From positions 1 through 64,000 of the forward strand of contig CAXHJY010000244.1 of the NCBI GenBank assembly GCA_964016885.1: DNA of 64,000 nt, read 5' to 3'. The notes beneath the pieces are model-generated. The model had not been told where the DNA came from. It saw nothing but the letters and a program-made list of their open reading frames with translations, and ran no database searches. The number at the start of each line of letters is the position of its first letter. Within the stretch, counting starts at the first letter, position 1. The stretch is from Eledone cirrhosa. Taxonomy: Eukaryota. Position numbers and translations under genes: made by a program. Positions 651 through 63,835 of this stretch are shown here, in pieces.

Positions 651-723
651 CTAAGGAAGTAATATCGTACAACTTATTGATTTTAAATAATTCTGATTCT
701 ACGTTTTTCGATAATTTTGTTCT

Positions 724-3700
724 GCAACACAACAACAACAACACACCCACCACCATCACCACAACAACAACACAACACACCCACCACTACCACCACCAAC
801 AACACAACACACCACCAACACAATACACCCACCACCACCACAACAACACAACACACCCACCACCGCCAACACAACACAATACACCCACCCACCATCACCA
901 ACAACAACACAGAACAACACACCACCCGAACAACAACAACAACACAACACACCCACCACCCCACCAACAACAACAACAACACAACACACCCACCACCACC
1001 ACAACAACACACCCACTACCACCATCACCAACACAACAACAACAAAACACACCCCCCAACAACAACAACACAACACACCACCAACAACAACAACACAACA
1101 CACCCACCAACACACACACACCCACCACACCAACAACACAACCACCCACCAACAACACAACCCAACCACCAACAACACACACACACCCACCACCACCAAC
1201 ACACCCACCAACAACAACAACACAACACACCCCCACCACCAACAACACAACACACCCACCAACAACACAACACACCCACCAACAACCAACAACACAACAC
1301 ACCCACCACCAACACAACACACCCACCACCAACAACACAACAACCCCACCACCCACCCACAACATACCCACCAACACACAACACAACACACCCACCACCA
1401 CCAACATACCCACCAACAACAACAACACAACACACCCTCCACCAACACACACACCACCAACAACAACAACACAACCACCACCAACACAACACACCCACCA
1501 ACAACAACAACACAACACACCCACCACCAACCACCACACACCCACCACACAACAACACACCCACCACCAACACAACACACCCACCAACAACAACAACACA
1601 ACACAACCCACACCAACACAACATACCACCACAACCACAACACAACACACCCACCACCACCAACACACCACACCCCCACCCACCACAACAACAACCAACA
1701 CACACCACCACCACACAACACACCCACCAACAACAACACAACACAACACACCCACCAACACAACACAACACACCACCCACCAAAACACACCCACCACACA
1801 CAACACAACACACCCACCACCACCAACACACAACACAACACACCACCACCACCACAACACAACACACCCACCACCACCACAACACAACCACCCACCACAA
1901 CATCAACACAACACACCCACCAACAACAACAACACACCCACCAACAACAACACACACCCACCCACCCACCACCAACAACACAACACACCCACCAACAACA
2001 CAACCCACCCCACCAACAACAACAACACACACACCCACCACCACCAACAACACAACACACCCACCACCACCAACAACACAACACACCCCACAACACACAA
2101 CACACCCACCACCACACCCAACAACACAACACACCACACCACCACCAACAACAACAACACACCCACCACCAACACCAACACAACCCACCCACCACCAACA
2201 CAACACACCCACCACCACCAATAACACAACCACCCCACCCACCACAACAACCACAACACACCCCCACCACCAACAACACAACACACCCACCAACAACACA
2301 ACACACCCACCAACAACACAACACACCCACCAACAACAACAACACAACACACCCACCAACACAACCAACACAACACACCCCCACAACAACAACACAACAC
2401 ACCCACCAACAACAACAACACAACACACCCACCAACAACAACAACACAACACACCCACCAACAACACAACACACCCCACCAACACACAACACACCCACCA
2501 ACAACAACAACACAACACACCCACCAACAACACCAACACAACACACCCACCACCACCAACACACAACACACCCACCACAACAACCACACAACACCCCCAC
2601 CACCACCAACACCCACACACACCCACCAACAACACAACACACCCACCACCACCATCACAACACCAACAACACAACACCCCCACCACCAACAACACACACA
2701 CCCACCCCACTACAACAACACAACACACCCCCACCAACAACAACACAACACAACACACCCACCAACACACAACAACCACCAACAACACAACACAACACAC
2801 CCACACCAACACAACATACCCACCAACAACAACAACACACACACCCTCCACCAACACCACACACCCCCAACAACAACAACACAACCACCCCCAACACAAC
2901 ACACCCCCAACAACAACAACACAACACACCCCCACCAACACAACACCCCACAACAACAACACACACCCACCACCACACAACACACCCACCAACACAACAA
3001 CACAACACACCCACCACCAACACAAATACCCACCAACAACCACAACCAACACACCCACCAACAACACAACACAACCCACCAACAACACACACAACACACC
3101 ACCACCACACAACACACCCCCCAACAACAACACAACACAACACACCCACCACAACAACACAACACACCCACCCACCCCAACACAACACACCCACCAACAA
3201 CAAACAACACAACACACCCACCACACCAACAACACAACACAACACACCCCACCACCACCAACAACACAACACACCCACCACCACCAACAACACAACACAC
3301 CACCAACAACAACAACACAACACACCCACCAACAACACAACACACCCACCAACAACAACACAACACACCCACCACCACCACAACACAACACACCACCAAC
3401 AACACAACCCACCCACCAACAACAACAACAAAACACACCACCCACCACCAACAACACAACACACCCACCACCACCAACAACACAACACACCCACCAACAA
3501 CACAACACACCCACCACCACCATCACCAACAACAACAACACAACACACCCACCACCAACAACAACACACACCCCACCACACAACACAAACACAACACCAC
3601 CACCAACACAACACACCCACCACCACCAATAACACAACACACCCACCAACAACAACAACACAACACACCCACCACCACCAACAACACAACACACCACCAA

Positions 3701-4303
3701 CAACACAACACACCCACCAACAACACAACACACCCACCAACAACAACAACACAACACACCCACCAACAACAACAACACAACACACCCACAACAACAACAC
3801 ACAACACACCCACCAACAACAACAACACAACACACCACCACAACAACAACACAACACACCCACCAACAACACAACACACCCACCAACAACACAACACACC
3901 CACCAACAACAACAACACAACACACCCACCAACAACAACAACACAACACACCCACCACCACCAACAACACAACACACCCACCAACAACAACAACACAACA
4001 CACCCACCACCACCAACAACACAACACACCCACCAACAACACAACACACCCACCACCACCATCACCAACAACAACAACACAACACACCCACCACCAACAA
4101 CAACAACACACCCACCACTAACAACAACACAACACACCCACCACCAACAACAACAACAACACAACACACCCACCAACAACACAACACACCCACCACCACC
4201 ATCACCAACAACAACAACACAACACACCACCACCAACAACAACACAACACACCCACCACCAACAGACAACAACAACAACACAACACACCCACCACCAACA
4301 ACC
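724..4303. repeat. Complex CAA/CAC/CA low-complexity array (recurring acaacacaacacacccacc motif)
   Basis: About 3.6 kb almost free of G and T on the + strand; open in many frames only because stop codons cannot form. Confidence 0.93.
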
Positions 4304-4325
4304 TCTTGCTTTTTACTATTTTTCT

Positions 4326-4812
4326 AGTAATGGTGGTGGATGATGGTGGCGGTGTTGGTGTTGGTTGTGTTGGTGTTGGCGGTGTTTGGTGTGGTGGTGT
4401 TGGTGGTGGTGGTGTTGGTGTGGTGTTGGTGGTGTTGGTGGTGGTGGTGTTGGTATTAGTGATAGTAGCAGTATATGAGCTGGTTGTGGTGCTGATGCTG
4501 ATGGTTGTGGTGATGGTGTTGGTGCTGATGGTGGTTGTTGGCGATGGTGAAGGTGGTGGGGGTTAGCGTGGTGGTGGTGGTGGTTGTGGTGGTGGTGGTG
4601 GTGGTGGTGGGTGGTTGTGCTGGTGACAGTAGTGGTAGCATGGTAGTTCTGGTGACAGCAGTGTTGGTGAGAGTAGTGGTGGTGATGGTGGCGGTAGAGG
4701 CGGTGCTGATGGTGGAGGTTGTGATGGTGGAGGCGGTGCTGATGGTGGTGAAGGGACGATGGTGGAGGTTGTGACGGTGGTGGGGGCGATGGTGGAGGTT
4801 GTCATGGTGATG
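4326..4812. repeat. (GGT/GTT/GAT)n degenerate trinucleotide tract
   Basis: Direct inspection; composition complementary to the adjacent upstream array. Confidence 0.88.
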
Positions 4813-4972: not shown

Positions 4973-5010
<38 letters not shown>

Positions 5011-5012
<2 letters not shown>

Positions 5013-5141
5013 CGAAGGAATTGTGGTAAGGAACCAGATGGACCATAACGCACCAAAGTGCTCAATACTTAAGGTAGTAGAGTGGGTAATAGGAACAAGT
5101 ATGACCCGACGGCAGAGCTCAAGCCGTTTCAACGCTATTTC
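5011..5141 (-). mobile_element. Single arm of the 46067-46589 family of (TA)n-associated elements; retains the 3' half of a hammerhead
   Basis: Matches 46390-46520 (gaagga..tggtaaggaaccagatggaccataacgcaccaaagt..cgacggcagagctcaagccgtttc); abuts (TA)n. Confidence 0.8.
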
Positions 5142-9334: not shown

Positions 9335-9862
9335 TAAGTCAACGTTATCACCCTTTTCTTCCTAAATCTACGCTATCTCCCCTTCCCTCCTCAGTCGACG
9401 TTATCACCCTTCCTTTCCTAAGTCGACGTTATCACCCCTTCCTTCCTCAGTCGACGTTATCACCCTTCCTTTCCTAAGTCGACGTTATCACCCTTCCTTC
9501 GTAAGTCGACATTATCACCCTTCCTTTCCTAAGTCGACGTTATCACCCCTTCCTTCCTCAGTCGACGTTATCACCCTTCCTTTCCTAAGTCGACGTTATC
9601 ACCCTTCCTTCGTAAGTCGACATTATCACCCTTCCTTTCCTAAGTCGACGTTATCACCCCTTCCTTCCTCAGTCGACGTTATCACCCTTCCTTCGTAAGT
9701 CGACATTATCACCCTTCCTTTCCTAAGTCGACGTTATCATCCTTCCTTTCCTAAGTCGACGTTATCACCCTTCCTTCGTAAGTCGACATTATCACCCTTC
9801 CTTCCTAAATCGACGTTATCTCCCCTTCCTTCCTCAGTCGACGTTATCTCCCCTTCCTTCCT
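9335..9862. repeat. 28-29-bp minisatellite (aagtcgacgttatcacccttcctttcct), about 18 copies
   Basis: Contiguous tandem units with no unique spacers. Confidence 0.93.
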
Positions 9863-10086
9863 CACCACCATAGGCGCTGAGCTGGCTACTCTTAGCAGTG
9901 AAGACTTGTGGTGTCCTGGGCCCTAGGGCTACCTCCCTACTCACCACCATAGGCGCTGAGCTGGCAAGCCGCAGGTGTGAATCTCGCGTGTTGGAATGGC
10001 TTTTCCAGCGCGTCTCCCTTGCCGTCCTCCGAGGAAACGCCTTCTCCATTCTGTCCGCCGTGGCTGTGGGGAGGCCACCAATATGA
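9860..10086 (+). mobile_element. CRE-like non-LTR retrotransposon 3' fragment (restriction-like endonuclease C-terminus)
   Basis: Encodes AVKTCGVLGPRATSLLTTIGAELASRRCESRVLEWLFQRVSLAVLRGNAFSIL, matching the AVETxGxxG...FQRxSLAxxRGNA motif; second copy at about 31160-31555. Confidence 0.75.
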
Positions 10087-10639
10087 TTGACTGACTTGTC
10101 ATTTTATCTGTCACCTGTTGCTGTCGTTAATTCCCTCTTATAATTTGGCTACCAGCTCACCCTCCTTTCTATTTTTTTTATCTTTCTTTTAATGTTTATC
10201 TTTCTTTTTCATTGTTGTAGTGACTCCATTTTCATTTTCTTCCATTTAACGTAAATTTTTTCCTTTTTTTTACAGTCTTATATCCGAATAAATTACAATT
10301 AACAATAACAATAATAAAAACATATATGACCAATGAGATTTATAAAACCAAAACGTAAGCTCGCAATTTCGAGTATTGTAATAGCAATGATGTTTGCTAT
10401 AAGAGGAACACAAATTTCATCTATTTATCTATTTGATGCATGGGTATTATAAAGAGTGACGTTGAAACATTTAATTCTTGGCAAATATCTTGATAAATAA
10501 AACTAAACAAAATGAAACCTGTTAAGATTGGTTTCCCTCAAGCACGGAATTTCAACTTACATTCACAAACAATGAAAACAGTAAGACAATTTATCATAAA
10601 CCAAACGCATTGCAGAACATAAGAAAACTTGTGGACATA

Positions 10640-14465
<3,826 letters not shown>

Positions 14466-14466
14466 A

Positions 14467-14800
14467 AAGTGAGGTTTTTTTTTACAAAATGAAAAATAAC
14501 CGAGGTGTCCTACACGAGTGAAAGTATAAAGAAAAAAAAGATGAAATCGAAAATGCAACTGGAGTCTTATTTTTAAAAATATATATATATATTTTTGGTT
14601 CCTTTACCGGTTTCGCAGTTCTTCTGCTTTTCAAAAGTAGAGTTGAGATGGAGGGTCTGTGGTTTTTCTCACTTGTGAGAAAAACCACAGACCCTCCATT
14701 TCAGAAGAACAGGGAAACCGGTAAAGGAACCAAAGAAATATATATATATTTTTTTAAATAAGACTCCAGTTGCATTTTCGATTTCATCTTTTTTTCTTTA
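14467..14800. mobile_element. Fold-back element, family P (also 53636-53920, 63472-63835, fragment 63042-63071)
   Basis: Palindrome centred on tctcacttgtgaga; flanked by (TA)n; carries a U3-A8 hammerhead on the minus strand at 14602-14637. Confidence 0.85.
14602..14637 (-). ncRNA. Minimal hammerhead, U3-A8 core variant
   Basis: ctt-TTGAAAA-GCAG aagaa CTGC-GAA-ACCGGT-A-aag. Confidence 0.62.
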
Positions 14801-14821
14801 TATATATATATATATATATAT

Positions 14822-22474: not shown

Positions 22475-22514
<40 letters not shown>

Positions 22515-22519
<5 letters not shown>

Positions 22520-23276
22520 ATATGTTGAGAAGGCAACACACCAGAGAGAGATATATAGTGTGTTATCAATAATACAGGAAAAAAAACCACCAGTGTATGG
22601 AATCTATAACCTATGAAAGGCAGACTATAGACACGATAATTAAAAATATAAATTAAAGCGTAAATAAATACCTCTATAACTATATAACACACGTACAAAT
22701 CCAAAGATATGTTTCACCAAAAAATTTGTTGAAAGAAATGGTCTAGTCTCGGTTCATCAGCGTGTGTAAGGCCATACATTTCAGACAACACTAAGAGAAT
22801 TTTACAATTGACTGTCCAGCTACACGTGGGAGAGAGAAGTCACAGCGTGTTTAAGGGCAGTGAACCAGTGGCCTCTGAGAGACGAACTGCTAGAAAGGGC
22901 AGTCCAAAGCCACTCAGAGAAGTGTGCTCAACCAAACAGAGATAGGAAAGACTGTTATTAGGAGCGAAATATCACGATAAATTAACGGAGGCATAGGCCG
23001 TCGTTATTCCCTGTAAATAATGTGCTCAAAGGGGAAGAGATCCTGAGCCCTTTAAAATATAATATGTTGAGAAGGCAACACACCAGAGAGAGATATATAG
23101 GTTAAAGATTCCATACACTGGTGGTTTTTTTCCCTGTATTATTGATAACACACTATATATCTCTCTCTGGTGTGTTGCCTTCTCAACATATTATATTTTA
23201 AAGGGCTCAGGATCTCTTCCCCTTTCAGCACATTATTTACAGGGAATAACGACGGCCTATGCCTCCGTTAATTTAT

Positions 23277-23283
<7 letters not shown>
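22515..23283 (-). mobile_element. Hammerhead-bearing unit with 542-nt periodicity plus an inverted copy of its end
   Basis: 22515-22558 is repeated at 23057-23100; 23101-23283 is an inverted copy spanning the junction; (TA)n on both sides. Confidence 0.82.
22687..22767 (-). ncRNA. Type I hammerhead ribozyme motif
   Basis: ACACACG-CTGATGA-accgaga..ttttggt-GAA-acatatc tttg gatttgt-A-CGTGTGT: perfect 7-bp stem I, GUA site. Confidence 0.82.
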
Positions 23284-23322
<39 letters not shown>

Positions 23323-25179: not shown

Positions 25180-25240
<61 letters not shown>

Positions 25241-25308
25241 ACATATCATATGTTGATTTAAAACTGAACTATCCACAAGTGTTTTTTAGCCTTCATATCA
25301 TGTCCTCC

Positions 25309-25379
25309 TGTTTTATCTGATGAAAACACAAATATTATTGCATGATGATGTTTGTTTTTGAAATGCGCATAATCAAATA
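25309..25379 (+). ncRNA. Type I hammerhead with long stem II and palindromic stem III (host element about 25238-25500)
   Basis: tgttttat-CTGATGA-aaacacaaat..tttgttttt-GAA-ATGCGCAT-A-atcaaata; reverse-complement copy at 61341-61515. Confidence 0.7.
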
Positions 25380-25736
25380 CATGGAACTACTTTAACCATC
25401 TTTTGATCTTATATATTATGTATACTCCAGTCCTACAAACTGTAGAGTGCTTCTTATCCGATATCTGCATTGCTTTATTGTACTACAATAAAACTCACCT
25501 CCTACATATATATAAATATATATATAAATATATTTAATACATTAACAGAGAAAGCTTAAAGCTTCAAGCTATACTCTGACTGGCTTCCATCTCACTCAAC
25601 AAACATTAGGATATACCTTAGTATAATCCCAATTTTACGTTTGGGGTGCTAACTATATGTATTTTGCGGATAGCCAGTTGCATTATTTTATATGAGACAT
25701 AATTATATATATATAAATATATATATATATATAAAT

Positions 25737-30392: not shown

Positions 30393-30502
30393 TGAGAAAA
30401 TTCAACATTTATACCCGAATAGTGAGAACATGGGAAAACGAGAAAATTCTATTACGTTTTCCCATGTTCTCACTATTAGGGTATAAATGTTGAGTTTTCT
30501 CA
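30393..30502. repeat. About 110-bp fold-back at the 5' end of the hammerhead element
   Basis: tgagaaaattcaacatttatacccgaatagtgagaacatgggaaaacg and its near-perfect reverse complement, 14-nt loop. Confidence 0.88.
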
Positions 30503-31001: not shown

Positions 31002-31159
31002 TTTATCTATCTGCCTACCTGTCCATCGGTTGTGGGTATGAAAATACACTCTTGTGTGTGAATACGGAAGAGCCGAACTCCCACTGTCATCGCCTCCATC
31101 TCTCTCGTCCTCCCCATCATTCTGTGTGCTGAGCAAATGGGGTCACACGTGCTGGTCTC

Positions 31160-31555
31160 CCCCACACAGCCCTGGCGGACAGAATGGAGAAGGCGTTTCC
31201 CCGGAGGATGGTAAGGGAGATGCGCTGGAAGATCAATCCCATCTCGTGAGGCTCACACATGCGGCTTGCCAGCTCAGCGCCTATGGTGGTGAGTAGGGAG
31301 GTAGCTCTAGGGCCAAGGGCACCAGAAGTCTCCACTGCTAAGAGCACGACCGCGACCCTGCCGGAGAGCAACCGGTACTTGGAGATTTTACCCTCCTCAG
31401 CCCGAAGTGCAGCAGATCTTGGGTTGGTAGCTCTAGGGCCAAGGACACCAGAAGTCTCCACTGCTAAGAGCACGACCGCGACCCTGCTGGAGAGCAACCG
31501 GTACTTGGAGATTTTACCCTCCTCAACCCGAAGTGCAGCAGAACTTGGGTTGGTC
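31160..31555 (-). mobile_element. CRE-like non-LTR retrotransposon 3' fragment with an in-frame 126-bp duplication
   Basis: AALRAEEGKISKYRLL...LAVETSGALGPRA...FQRISLTILRGNAFSIL; 31301-31426 is repeated at 31427-31552. Confidence 0.78.
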
Positions 31556-31785
31556 GCAGACTGCACCAGGTTGCTGCTAGGAGAAGAGTCGCTGCAAATG
31601 GCAGGACAAATGACTGCTTTTACAGATATTTTCTGCGTTTGGGATTTTCAGCATCTTCTAGGAATATATGTATACAAACATGTATAAAGACTTTAACAGG
31701 ATTCTAATAAATATTGCTTTTACAGGTAATATTTATTACATGTATACATTTTGGTAGGGGACACCTTGTTAATATATATGAAGAT

Positions 31786-46069: not shown

Positions 46070-46348
46070 AAAATGTTTGACCCCGATGGCAGAGCTCAAG
46101 CCGTTTCGACGGGTATTTCTGGACTTAGAAATAGCCGTCGAAACGGCTTGAGCTCTGCCGTCGGGGTCAAACATTTTCCTATTACCCACTCTACTACCCT
46201 AAGTATTGAGTACTCTGGTGCGTTATGGTCCATCTGGTTCCTTACCAGTCTTCCTTCATTATATATATATATATCGATATATGTTCGATTAGATATATAT
46301 ATATCAATATATGTTCGATTAGATATATATATATCGATATATATTCGA

Positions 46349-46392
<44 letters not shown>

Positions 46393-46585
46393 GAAGGAGG
46401 TGTGGTAAGGAACCAGATGGACCATAACGCACCAAAGTACTCAATACTTAGGGTAGTAGAGTGGGTAATAGGAACGAGTAGGACGCCGACGGCTGAGCTC
46501 AAGCCGTTTCGACGGCTAATTCTGGACTAAAAAAAAAAAAAAAAAAAAAAACGGCTTGAGCTCAGCCGTCGGGGTCCTACTCGTT

Positions 46586-49510: not shown

Positions 49511-49566
49511 AACGTAACTCCCTACCCTCACCCCCACCGAAACAAAACAAACGAAAGCTGAAGTTG

Positions 49567-50799
49567 ATGATGACAAAGATGATGATGATGGAAAGCAATC
49601 AGACCCCTACTTTTGAAAGTGTTTTCGGTTGTCAAACGTTTGATTACACTTTTGAAAATATATCCTTGGGCAATTTATCGAACTCACATCTCGATGCAGA
49701 GAACTGTTTGCTCGATACGGTGCAAATGGATGTCGGAGATAAGATCTACGCTTTCTCAACGCCAGTGATTTTCGCCATGGGTATACTAGGTAATTCTGTA
49801 TCACTAAAGATATTCTTGTCGAAAAACTTCCGGCGTCAAGCTGGTGGTGTGTATTTAGCGTCGCTGTCTTGTGCGGACATTTTCGCCTTAGTTTTCTACG
49901 TGATGACGGAATGGCTGAAAAAAATACCTCTCTTTTTAATGTCCAGTCGTAAGATACCGGTCTTGGATACAGAAGGAATGTGCCAAATGATACAGTTTCT
50001 ATCGTACACCTTCCGTTTTCTCTCTTCTTGGTTGGTCGTTATATTCACAGTCGAAAGATACATTGGAGTGTGTCATCCCTTTAAAAGACTTGAATGGTGC
50101 ACGACAAAGACGGCACGGAGGAGTATAGGGGGACTGGTTATAGTTTCGCTGGCCATTAACTCTTATAAGCCGGCCCTAACTAAAGTGTATCGGCTTCACG
50201 GAGGTTTAACGAAGTGTACTGGAAATTTGGAATACAGATATCTTTCGTTTATTTTGGACAGTGTATACGCAGTCTCTATTACTTTCGTTCCGTTTGTGTT
50301 TATATTCCTGCTGAATATTCTAATTATTCGTGCTTTAGTACGGCTAAAACGAAGACAAAAGACCAACCAAGTAAAAGCAAAGGAAGCAGTCGGTAGGACA
50401 GACTTTACATTGTTATTGCTGATGATATCTTTCTGTTTCATAGCCTTCAAACTTCCGTTTTTTGTTACTTGGTGCCAACAGTTCTTCTTTTCCATAAAAC
50501 TAGAGGGGAGTGACTTAGACGAAATCAACGACCACAACAGACTTTTAGTGATGAAAAAAGCTCTCAACATATCCAGAATTATATTCTACATGAGCTACGT
50601 AACAAATTTCTTTCTCTACAGTTTCGTTGGCTCTTCTTTCCGTCTTGAACTTAAGCGACTGTTGTCCTGTCGCCACAAGAGAGCTCGCACCAATACTTGG
50701 ACTCCACAACGAACATATTTGCGCTCCGATATCAGCCATGTTGAATCTTTTCACCGCAACACTTCTGCTGCTAAGAACCAGAGTATAGATGAGGTCTGA
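49567..50799 (+). CDS. Intronless class A (rhodopsin-like) GPCR, probably a neuropeptide receptor of the FMRFamide/sex-peptide-receptor-related group
   Basis: About 410 aa; seven hydrophobic segments; TM1 GILGN, TM2 LSCAD, TM3 Cys and ERY..VCHP, TM5 Pro, TM6 F..FKLP, TM7 NFFLY; N-terminal N-glycosylation sequons NIS and NLS. First ATG at 49567; ligand assignment is inference. Confidence 0.93.
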   Translation: MMTKMMMMESNQTPTFESVFGCQTFDYTFENISLGNLSNSHLDAENCLLDTVQMDVGDKIYAFSTPVIFAMGILGNSVSLKIFLSKNFRRQAGGVYLASLSCADIFALVFYVMTEWLKKIPLFLMSSRKIPVLDTEGMCQMIQFLSYTFRFLSSWLVVIFTVERYIGVCHPFKRLEWCTTKTARRSIGGLVIVSLAINSYKPALTKVYRLHGGLTKCTGNLEYRYLSFILDSVYAVSITFVPFVFIFLLNILIIRALVRLKRRQKTNQVKAKEAVGRTDFTLLLLMISFCFIAFKLPFFVTWCQQFFFSIKLEGSDLDEINDHNRLLVMKKALNISRIIFYMSYVTNFFLYSFVGSSFRLELKRLLSCRHKRARTNTWTPQRTYLRSDISHVESFHRNTSAAKNQSIDEV

Positions 50800-51234: not shown

Positions 51235-59850
<8,616 letters not shown>

Positions 59851-59888: not shown

Positions 59889-60030
59889 TGAAATTATTAG
59901 AAATGTAAGCTATCGCCGTATTTTGACTAAAGAAATTAAAGAAATTATTTAGCCTGATAGTGGGGTTATAATAATTTCTTTAATTTCTTTAGTCAAAATA
60001 CGGTGATAGCTTACATTTCTAATAATTTCA
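59889..60030. repeat. About 140-bp fold-back island between (TA)n arrays
   Basis: tgaaattattagaaatgtaagctatcgccgtattttgactaaagaaattaaagaaattatt and its reverse complement. Confidence 0.88.
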
Positions 60031-61310: not shown

Positions 61311-61343
<33 letters not shown>

Positions 61344-61372
61344 GATCAAAAGATGGTTAAAAGAGTTCCATG

Positions 61373-61443
61373 TATTTTATTATGCGCATTTCAAAAACAA
61401 ATATCATCATGCGATGACATTTGTGTTTTCGTCAGATAAAATA
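61373..61443 (-). ncRNA. Type I hammerhead with long stem II and palindromic stem III
   Basis: tattttat-CTGACGA-aaacacaaatgtcatc gcat gatgatatttgttttt-GAA-ATGCGCAT-A-ataaaata: perfect 8-bp stem I. Confidence 0.8.
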
Positions 61444-61522
61444 GGGAGACATGATATGAAGGTTAAAAAACACTTGTGAATAGTGCAGTTTTAAATCAAC
61501 ATATGATATGTTGATATATATG

Positions 61523-61575
<53 letters not shown>

Positions 61576-62952: not shown

Positions 62953-63070
62953 ATATATATATATATATATATATCCTAACTCGTGTGCTTCCTCTCCACA
63001 TTTTATTATTATTATATATATATATATAAATATATATATATTAGAAAGTGAGGTTTTTTTTACAAAATGA

Positions 63071-63109
<39 letters not shown>

Positions 63110-63471: not shown

Positions 63472-63835
63472 TTAGAAAGTGAGGTTTTTTTACAAAATGA
63501 AAAATAACCGAGGTGTCCTACACGAATGAAAGTATAAAGAAAAAAAGATGAAATCGAAAATGCAACTGGAGTCTTATTTTTTTTTTAAATATATATATTT
63601 ATTTGGTTCCTTTACCGGTTTCGCAGTTCTTCTGCTTTTCAAAAGTAGAGTTGAGGTGGAGGGTCTGTGGTTTTTCTCACATCTGATGTGAGAAAAACCA
63701 CAGACCCTCCATCTCAACTCTACTTTTGAAAAGCAGAAGAACTGCGAAACCGGTAAAGGAACCAAATAAATATATATATATTTTTTTTAAATAAGACTGC
63801 AGTTGCATTTTCGATATCATCTTTTTTTCTTTATA
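63472..63835. mobile_element. Fold-back element family P, most complete copy, with two divergent U3-A8 hammerheads (63610-63645 -, 63723-63758 +)
   Basis: About 150-bp near-perfect arms centred on tctcacatctgatgtgaga. Confidence 0.88.

What the first reader, a model, noticed from the sequence alone, without database searches (positions are those of the whole stretch)
63472..63835. Family P hammerhead uses a non-canonical U3-A8 core (UUGAAAA) in a divergent fold-back pair
Seen: ctt-UUGAAAA-GCAG aagaa CUGC-GAA-ACCGGU-A-aag is identical at 14602, 63610 and 63723, with one change at 53814. Established: C3 and G8 form a Watson-Crick pair in the active hammerhead, so a double change to U3-A8 preserves it and such variants are known. 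The ACCGGU palindrome suits dimeric stem III formation. A standard CUGANGA search would miss this family. Low divergence between copies suggests recent activity. Stem I is only about 3 bp, so activity is uncertain.
Basis: partly seen in the sequence, partly recalled or inferred. Interest (0 to 1): 0.75.

Follow-up and report, generated by a model that had tools for sequence, protein, structure and literature searches.

The report
Octopus retroelement hairpin with variant hammerhead
This is a highly repeated fold-back DNA element in an octopus-like genome, most likely the truncated end of a Penelope-like retrotransposon; each intact arm carries a predicted self-cleaving hammerhead RNA with a U3-A8 core, a variant already published from other animals, so the family is probably new but the kind is known.

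Summary
Observation confirmed. The 36-nt motif is exact at 63723(+), 63645(-) and 14637(-), with one change at 53814(+). It fits a type I hammerhead with U3-A8, G10.1-C11.1, palindromic ACCGGU and GUA cleavage triplet; 0 of 20,000 shuffles gave a strict match. It sits in a ~290-365-bp head-to-head fold-back with a one-sided 3' tail, in (TA)n, three times in the window; 8,842 contigs of one run lie on it. This is the published anatomy of truncated Penelope-like elements (inverted pLTR plus tail), though no RT gene was found. The core is not new: natural U3-A8 was reported in 2011, and about 1,300 U3-A8 motifs in Schistosoma, with opposite-strand pairs, in 2014; that supplement lists the same UUGAAAA with a 3-bp stem I. 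Corrections: the two arms lie on opposite strands, so they cannot dimerise in cis, and a read-through RNA would fold into a hairpin that buries the ribozyme. Two of six arms are broken. U3 and A8 are fixed rather than covarying. Cleavage is untested. The scan's earlier notes hold nothing related. New member of a known kind; low interest.

The parts
63472..63532 (-). one-sided 3' extension ('tail', about 60 bp) ending in (TA)n
   Evidence: present at one end only at all 3 loci, 31 bp at locus 53636; loose (TA)n ends at both 63462 and 63533 in runs X1 and X4
63533..63684 (-). tail-bearing arm (inferred pLTR / 3' end of a Penelope-like element)
63685..63835 (+). inverted tail-less arm, head-to-head with the first
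   Evidence: longer elements continue 5' of 63685 in runs X1, X4 and X21
63723..63758 (+). type I hammerhead motif: U3=63726, A8=63731, stem II 63733-63745, ACCGGU 63749-63754, predicted cut after A17=63755
   Evidence: cleavage untested
63610..63645 (-). identical hammerhead motif on the opposite strand: U3=63642, A8=63637, predicted cut after 63613
63685..63729 (+). short open frame [14 protein letters not shown] whose TGA stop is U4-G5-A6 of the core; possibly the end of the parent ORF
   Evidence: similar frame in the relative; weak
14463..14802 (.). second fold-back copy: intact motif 14637-14602(-), plus arm with a 20-nt deletion through the core
53636..53924 (.). third fold-back copy: motif 53814-53849(+) with ACUGGU; minus arm begins inside the core; 31-bp tail
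63041..63071 (-). solo fragment of the tail's 3' end between (TA)n runs
56518..56665 (+). divergent single-arm relative (about 75% identity over 66-77 nt) with U3-A8, the same ACCGGU, compensatory stem I and II changes, and core changes U4C and A13C

Best explanation
The feature is a high-copy fold-back repeat that is most likely the 5'-truncated 3' end of a Penelope-like retrotransposon (a pLTR with tail plus an inverted pLTR), and each intact arm carries a predicted type I hammerhead whose C3-G8 pair is replaced by U3-A8. Shown: anatomy, motif, repetition, (TA)n flanks, two alternative 3' ends, longer elements extending 5' of the centre. Inferred: a parent RT/endonuclease inserts cDNA at (TA)n by target-primed reverse transcription; two start points give ends with and without the tail; a strand switch near one preferred 5' boundary gives the head-to-head copy. 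The ribozyme would work only in the parent's RNA, where two same-sense copies (tandem pLTRs or two molecules) pair through ACCGGU and cut slowly after GUA. In the fold-back copies it would be a passenger locked in a ~150-bp hairpin.
For: Motif significance. Same polarity and one-sided tail at 3 of 3 loci, plus a solo tail fragment and a solo-arm relative. Two (TA)n-joined ends about 70 nt apart, and upstream continuation at 63685, in public runs. Published PLE anatomy of inverted pLTR, optional tail, palindromic head-to-head junction and (TA)n bias (PMC3846280; PMC8557442; PMC11167929). U3-A8 in PLE hammerheads (PMC4209133). The dimer MFE forms the 6-bp intermolecular stem III and both stems II unforced (-19.1 kcal/mol), while the monomeric active fold has P about 4e-7. 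The relative keeps 10 of 10 pairs with 2 double changes. In X1, U3C and A8G are each under 2% of depth (deduced).
Against: No RT or GIY-YIG frame found in the window and no parent element retrieved, so clade and membership rest on anatomy. Covariation is not significant (55 of 500 shuffles, 3 distinct rows). The fourth pair of stem II is broken in common variants (63632 C>A 6.5% and C>G 4.9% of X1 depth). The relative has two core changes. Closing the 3-bp stems I costs 3.6 kcal/mol against the dimer MFE. The tail (60 bp at 2 of 3 loci) exceeds the published 30-40 bp. The extra base between positions 9 and 10.1 typical of min-HHRs is absent.
Confidence: 0.75

Rival explanations
1. The fold-back unit itself is a propagating non-autonomous element: the hairpin RNA or its tail-bearing arm is copied in trans by a PLE protein, so the pair is amplified as a unit rather than remade at each insertion.
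For: The tail-less arm starts within about 4 nt of the same place at 3 of 3 loci. Tail depth is roughly half of arm depth in X1. Most listed internal joints end at 63683-63697, though the reference centre biases this.
Against: A single master with a fixed pLTR boundary gives the same pattern. Junction details differ at all 3 loci. Longer and solo forms exist.
Confidence: 0.12
2. It is a MITE or fold-back DNA transposon with long terminal inverted repeats inserting at TA, and the hammerhead-like motif is chance or a captured relic.
For: About 150-bp inverted arms, TA flanks, small size and high copy number. Longer copies extending inward would also fit long TIRs.
Against: One-sided tail at 3 of 3 loci, a solo arm relative, a solo tail, 0 of 20,000 strict chance matches, and another hammerhead-bearing element with direct plus inverted repeats in the same window (22505-23300).
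Confidence: 0.08
3. The element is PLE-derived but the hammerhead is catalytically dead in this lineage and is kept by descent or because it overlaps the ORF stop codon.
For: 3-bp stem I; published min-HHRs cleave poorly even as dimers (PMC4209133); HHR mutants did not impair insertion in vitro for PAc (PMC11167929); TGA stop overlaps the core; the relative has U4C and A13C.
Against: Coding does not force U3 (TTT and TTC both give Phe) or A8. Stems and palindrome are kept across two families. A variant at about 31% of X1 depth would lengthen stem I to 4 bp (my reading).
Confidence: 0.25

Closest known systems
U3-A8 min-HHR of Schistosoma mansoni Cercyon PLEs (Cervera and De la Pena 2014, PMC4209133)
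   Same: U3-A8 core, about 1,300 hits; supplement row Schistosoma_mansoni(4)* has UUGAAAA with a 3-bp helix I and a stem II starting GC; opposite-strand pairs 100-700 bp apart; mostly truncated elements
   Different: here no extra base between 9 and 10.1, stem II is 4 bp (6 there), helix III palindrome is 6 nt (4 there); host is an octopod; no RT linked yet
Natural U3-A8 hammerheads (Perreault et al. 2011, PMC3088659)
   Same: states that C3-G8 covaries to U3-A8 in several natural examples and that such cores had been shown active in vitro
   Different: the passages seen do not describe this family
EN+ Penelope-like element insertions: inverted pLTR plus tail (PMC3846280, PMC8557442, PMC11167929)
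   Same: head-to-head inverted repeat with palindromic junction, optional one-sided tail, 5' truncation, (TA)n bias in Naiad and Hydra clades
   Different: no ORF in these copies; tail 60 bp at 2 of 3 loci; no start codon 3' of the ribozyme, unlike Penelope/Poseidon; not Hydra-1_oBim (different HHR); clade unknown
Non-LTR retrozymes (bioRxiv 10.64898/2026.07.22.740005)
   Same: non-coding, type I HHR, PLE-derived
   Different: retrozymes are head-to-tail tandem repeats; these copies are dispersed head-to-head pairs

Membership tests
Type I hammerhead (PLE-type, palindromic helix III) | core U4 G5 A6 N7, A9, G12 A13 A14, A15.1-U16.1 and NUH triplet in type I order | tested here: met
   4 intact arms
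Type I hammerhead (PLE-type, palindromic helix III) | Watson-Crick pair between positions 3 and 8 | tested here: met
   U3-A8 in all intact copies and the relative; the pair never varies, so the pairing itself is not demonstrated
Type I hammerhead (PLE-type, palindromic helix III) | G10.1-C11.1 closing helix II, and palindromic helix III | tested here: met
   C11.1U wobble variant at 6% of X1 depth
Type I hammerhead (PLE-type, palindromic helix III) | helix covariation | tested here: inconclusive
   2 double changes in 10 pairs, 3 distinct rows, 55 of 500 shuffles as high
Type I hammerhead (PLE-type, palindromic helix III) | self-cleavage | not testable with these tools
   needs a bench assay
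Type I hammerhead (PLE-type, palindromic helix III) | match to Rfam hammerhead models | tested here: inconclusive
   no hammerhead hit at E<=10; two C3-G8 control motifs gave none and E 8.7
Strict min-HHR consensus (Cervera 2014) | extra nucleotide between 9 and 10.1; helix II of 5-8 bp | tested here: not met
   absent here; also absent in the Marsupenaeus and Saccoglossus(2) rows of that supplement; not filed under the strict consensus
Penelope-like element | telomerase-like RT plus GIY-YIG ORF | tested here: inconclusive
   none in the window; no genome held; parent not retrieved
Penelope-like element | inverted pLTR, optional one-sided 3' tail, 5' truncation | tested here: met
Penelope-like element | hammerhead in the terminal repeat; microsatellite target | tested here: met
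Penelope-like element | partial tandem (direct pLTR) upstream of an ORF | tested here: inconclusive
   not seen at the 3 loci; long copies not readable
MITE | inverted repeats forming both termini | tested here: not met
   31-60 bp unpaired extension on one side at 3 of 3 loci
Non-LTR retrozyme | head-to-tail tandem HHR repeats | tested here: not met
   only head-to-head pairs in the window

The most novel reading that the evidence does not exclude
An octopod Penelope-like lineage has fixed a U3-A8 hammerhead over its stop codon across at least two divergent families and has spawned a self-propagating hairpin derivative that locks the ribozyme in perfect dsRNA; if the parent is a Naiad, the claim that Naiads lack hammerheads would partly reflect CUGANGA-only core searches.
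Probability: 0.1. Interest if true: 0.5.

Novelty: new member of a known kind. Interest (0 to 1): 0.2.

Why it matters
Modestly. It adds a cephalopod family to the known U3-A8 PLE hammerheads and is a reminder that CUGANGA-only searches undercount them. A high-copy family with many natural variants would allow a clean test of selection on a ribozyme core, and its perfect hairpins are likely ADAR substrates in an animal with very high editing (PMC5625713). It raises no new chemistry or mechanism.

Tried and rejected
No genome is held for the window, so no genome-wide census. Rfam: only hairpin/miRNA noise window-wide among the 150 of 690 rows shown; no hammerhead on the arm; controls also missed; a MALAT1 match at E 0.79, far below gathering, rejected as chance. 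Monomer folds are not better than shuffles (z -1.0 to 0.5), as expected for a dimer-type motif. Pattern scans for relatives or the parent: 0 and 0 in metagenomes; 2 viral hits without stem II, rejected as chance. No RNA holder listed. A position-by-position variant table of the core alone was not obtained, so selection on the core stays open. Craig 2021 supplement: short motifs of this family hit only unrelated contexts or nothing; line wraps and cut protein lines limit this search. Hydra-clade EN ends do not resemble the short frame. Coding signal of that frame is weak: 6 of 14 identical residues with the relative, about 3 of 9 changes synonymous by eye. Earlier scan notes: 2 unrelated hits, then 0 and 0. 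Lunse et al. 2017 and Przybilski and Hammann 2007 are not held.

Full report
Observation. Read as a type I hammerhead it has stem I CUU/AAG, core U3 U4 G5 A6 A7 A8 A9, stem II GCAG/CUGC with G10.1-C11.1, G12 A13 A14, a 6-nt palindrome as helix III and a GUA cleavage triplet. A descriptor scan over all 16 combinations at positions 3 and 8 found 4 U3-A8 hits (this family), 3 C3-G8 hits (other repeats) and none for the other 14; 30 local shuffles gave 0.07 U3-A8 hits per window. The four hits are one family, hence one event. For the 213-nt arm plus tail, 109 of 20,000 shuffles gave a relaxed match with any Watson-Crick 3-8 pair and 0 of 20,000 a strict match, which the real arm passes (strict criteria chosen after seeing the motif). 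Rfam hammerhead models miss it but also miss or barely see two canonical controls.

Setting. The window is animal DNA rich in (TA)n. Its one clear gene, a 7tm_1 receptor, is 93% identical to an Octopus bimaculoides protein and 89% to an Argonauta one, so the host is an octopod. No whole genome is held. No RT or endonuclease frame was recognised among the complex frames of 70 or more residues (5 frames scanned against Pfam).

Anatomy. Three loci (14463-14802, 53636-53924, 63472-63835) share one plan and polarity: (TA)n, an unpaired extension of about 60 bp (31 bp at 53636), a ~150-bp arm, its inverted copy, (TA)n. Hammerheads read outward from the centre. Four of six arms are intact; one has a 20-nt deletion through the core and one begins inside it. 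Arms differ by 4-11 substitutions over 98-149 aligned bases. A solo piece of the tail end lies at 63041-63071, and a divergent single-arm relative at 56518-56665, both between (TA)n runs.

Public runs. Of 23 runs listed, 3 hold half or more of the sampled words, all from one sample that may be the source of the window. Four runs were laid: 8,842 contigs in X1, 3,424 reads in X21 (same species label), and 11 and 14 contigs in X4 and X5 (two other organism labels). (TA)n loose ends occur both at the tail end (63462) and at the arm end (63533): two alternative 3' ends. Loose ends at 63685 in X1, X4 and X21 show longer elements that continue 5' of the fold-back centre (253 letters in one X4 contig). 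Only 40 of 121 variant rows were displayed. The per-run tally still allows one deduction: X1 has 5 A>G places at 2% or more, all five displayed and outside the core, and no T>C place, so U3C and A8G are each below 2% of depth. The same deduction is not possible for X21 (5 of 13 A>G places displayed). Displayed X1 variants within the motif are C11.1U (6.0%, keeps a wobble pair) and G10.4U/C (6.5% and 4.9%, break the loop-closing pair of stem II). A change at 63722 at 31% of depth would extend stem I to 4 bp (my reading). One X5 contig carries G12U with neighbouring changes, a decayed copy.

Cross-family comparison. The relative keeps U3-A8 and ACCGGU and all 10 pairs, with double changes in stem I (C-G to U-A) and stem II (G-C to U-A), but with only 3 distinct rows 55 of 500 shuffles score as high, and this copy has U4C and A13C. 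The frame 63685-63729 reads [14 protein letters not shown] with the stop at U4-G5-A6; the relative reads [15 protein letters not shown]; the three listed 30-letter loose ends before 63685 have no stop in that frame by eye. This hints that the core overlaps the parent's stop codon, but it is weak.

How it would work. The monomeric active fold has a probability near 4e-7 in the nearest-neighbour model. Two same-sense copies pair through the 6-bp palindrome in the unforced dimer MFE (-19.1 kcal/mol); closing both 3-bp stems I costs 3.6 more (-15.5); the ACUGGU copy gives -10.4. The two arms of a fold-back cannot be those partners: any transcript holds one sense and one antisense copy and folds into a -227 kcal/mol hairpin. 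The ribozyme would therefore act, slowly, only in tandem parent RNA or in trans (inferred).

Literature. PMC4209133 (main text parts 1-2 of 4; supplement file 2, one passage and part 2 of 3; file 1 not searchable) reports a U3-A8 core in S. mansoni Cercyon PLE hammerheads with about 1,300 hits, dual motifs 100-700 bp apart on opposite strands, a listed motif with UUGAAAA and a 3-bp helix I, and low cleavage even as dimers. PMC3088659 (passages) reports natural U3-A8 covariation and cites earlier in vitro activity. PMC8557442 (passages, section 11, supplement searches and one part), PMC3846280 (passages) and PMC8969392 (passages) describe inverted 5'-truncated pLTRs, palindromic head-to-head junctions, a one-sided 30-40 bp tail and (TA)n bias; PMC8557442 searched Naiad cores with 'cuganga' only. 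PMC11167929 (passages) ties the tail to two RT start sites and finds the HHR needs the protein to cleave and is dispensable for insertion in vitro. PMC6765202 (passages) reviews the dimer model. The retrozyme preprint (part 1 of 5) defines retrozymes as tandem repeats. PMC13282606 (passages) lists 31 recently active Penelope-like families in O. vulgaris and has no occurrence of 'ribozyme'. I found no description of this particular family in six searches; Repbase, Dfam and Lunse et al. 2017 (not held) could not be checked and may hold it.

Verdict. A real hammerhead-type motif in a repeat with PLE anatomy. It works like a PLE dimer-type hammerhead (confidence about 0.75 for the PLE origin; catalytic activity perhaps 0.6). 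PLE membership lacks the RT test. The U3-A8 core and the opposite-strand arrangement are both published. New member of a known kind; interest 0.2.

Noticed in passing
window 22505-23300: Another element with a canonical C3-G8 hammerhead motif at 22760(-) and direct plus inverted terminal repeats in (TA)n, a PLE-like arrangement.
   Followed up: partly
window 30318(-) and 61435(-): Two more canonical type I hammerhead-like motifs with 7-8 bp stem I and palindromic helix III, with similar stem I sequence; 61327-61560 has a 92% copy at 25192-25424.
   Followed up: partly
window 56518-56665: Divergent solo relative with U3-A8, compensatory stem changes and two core mutations.
   Followed up: yes
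window 46150-46500 and 4981-5120: A different fold-back family with (TA)n-rich centre and no hammerhead hit in the descriptor scan.
   Followed up: no
window 49558-50796 (+): Uninterrupted class A GPCR frame (7tm_1), 93% identical to an Octopus bimaculoides protein.
   Followed up: partly
window 31010-31684 and 9837-10103: Repeated fragment whose translation recalls the C-terminus of a restriction-like-endonuclease non-LTR element (recalled motif; no Pfam hit for the two 31-kb frames).
   Followed up: no
window 700-4800: Long (CAA/CAC)-type low-complexity array that switches to its complement near 4320, a fold-back of simple repeats.
   Followed up: no
window 59900-60019, 30393-30502, 22969-23284: Further long near-perfect hairpins; the window is dense in potential dsRNA.
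   Followed up: no
window 63723-63733: With U3-A8 the stretch CUUUUGAAAAG is itself nearly palindromic, which could offer a competing pairing.
   Followed up: no
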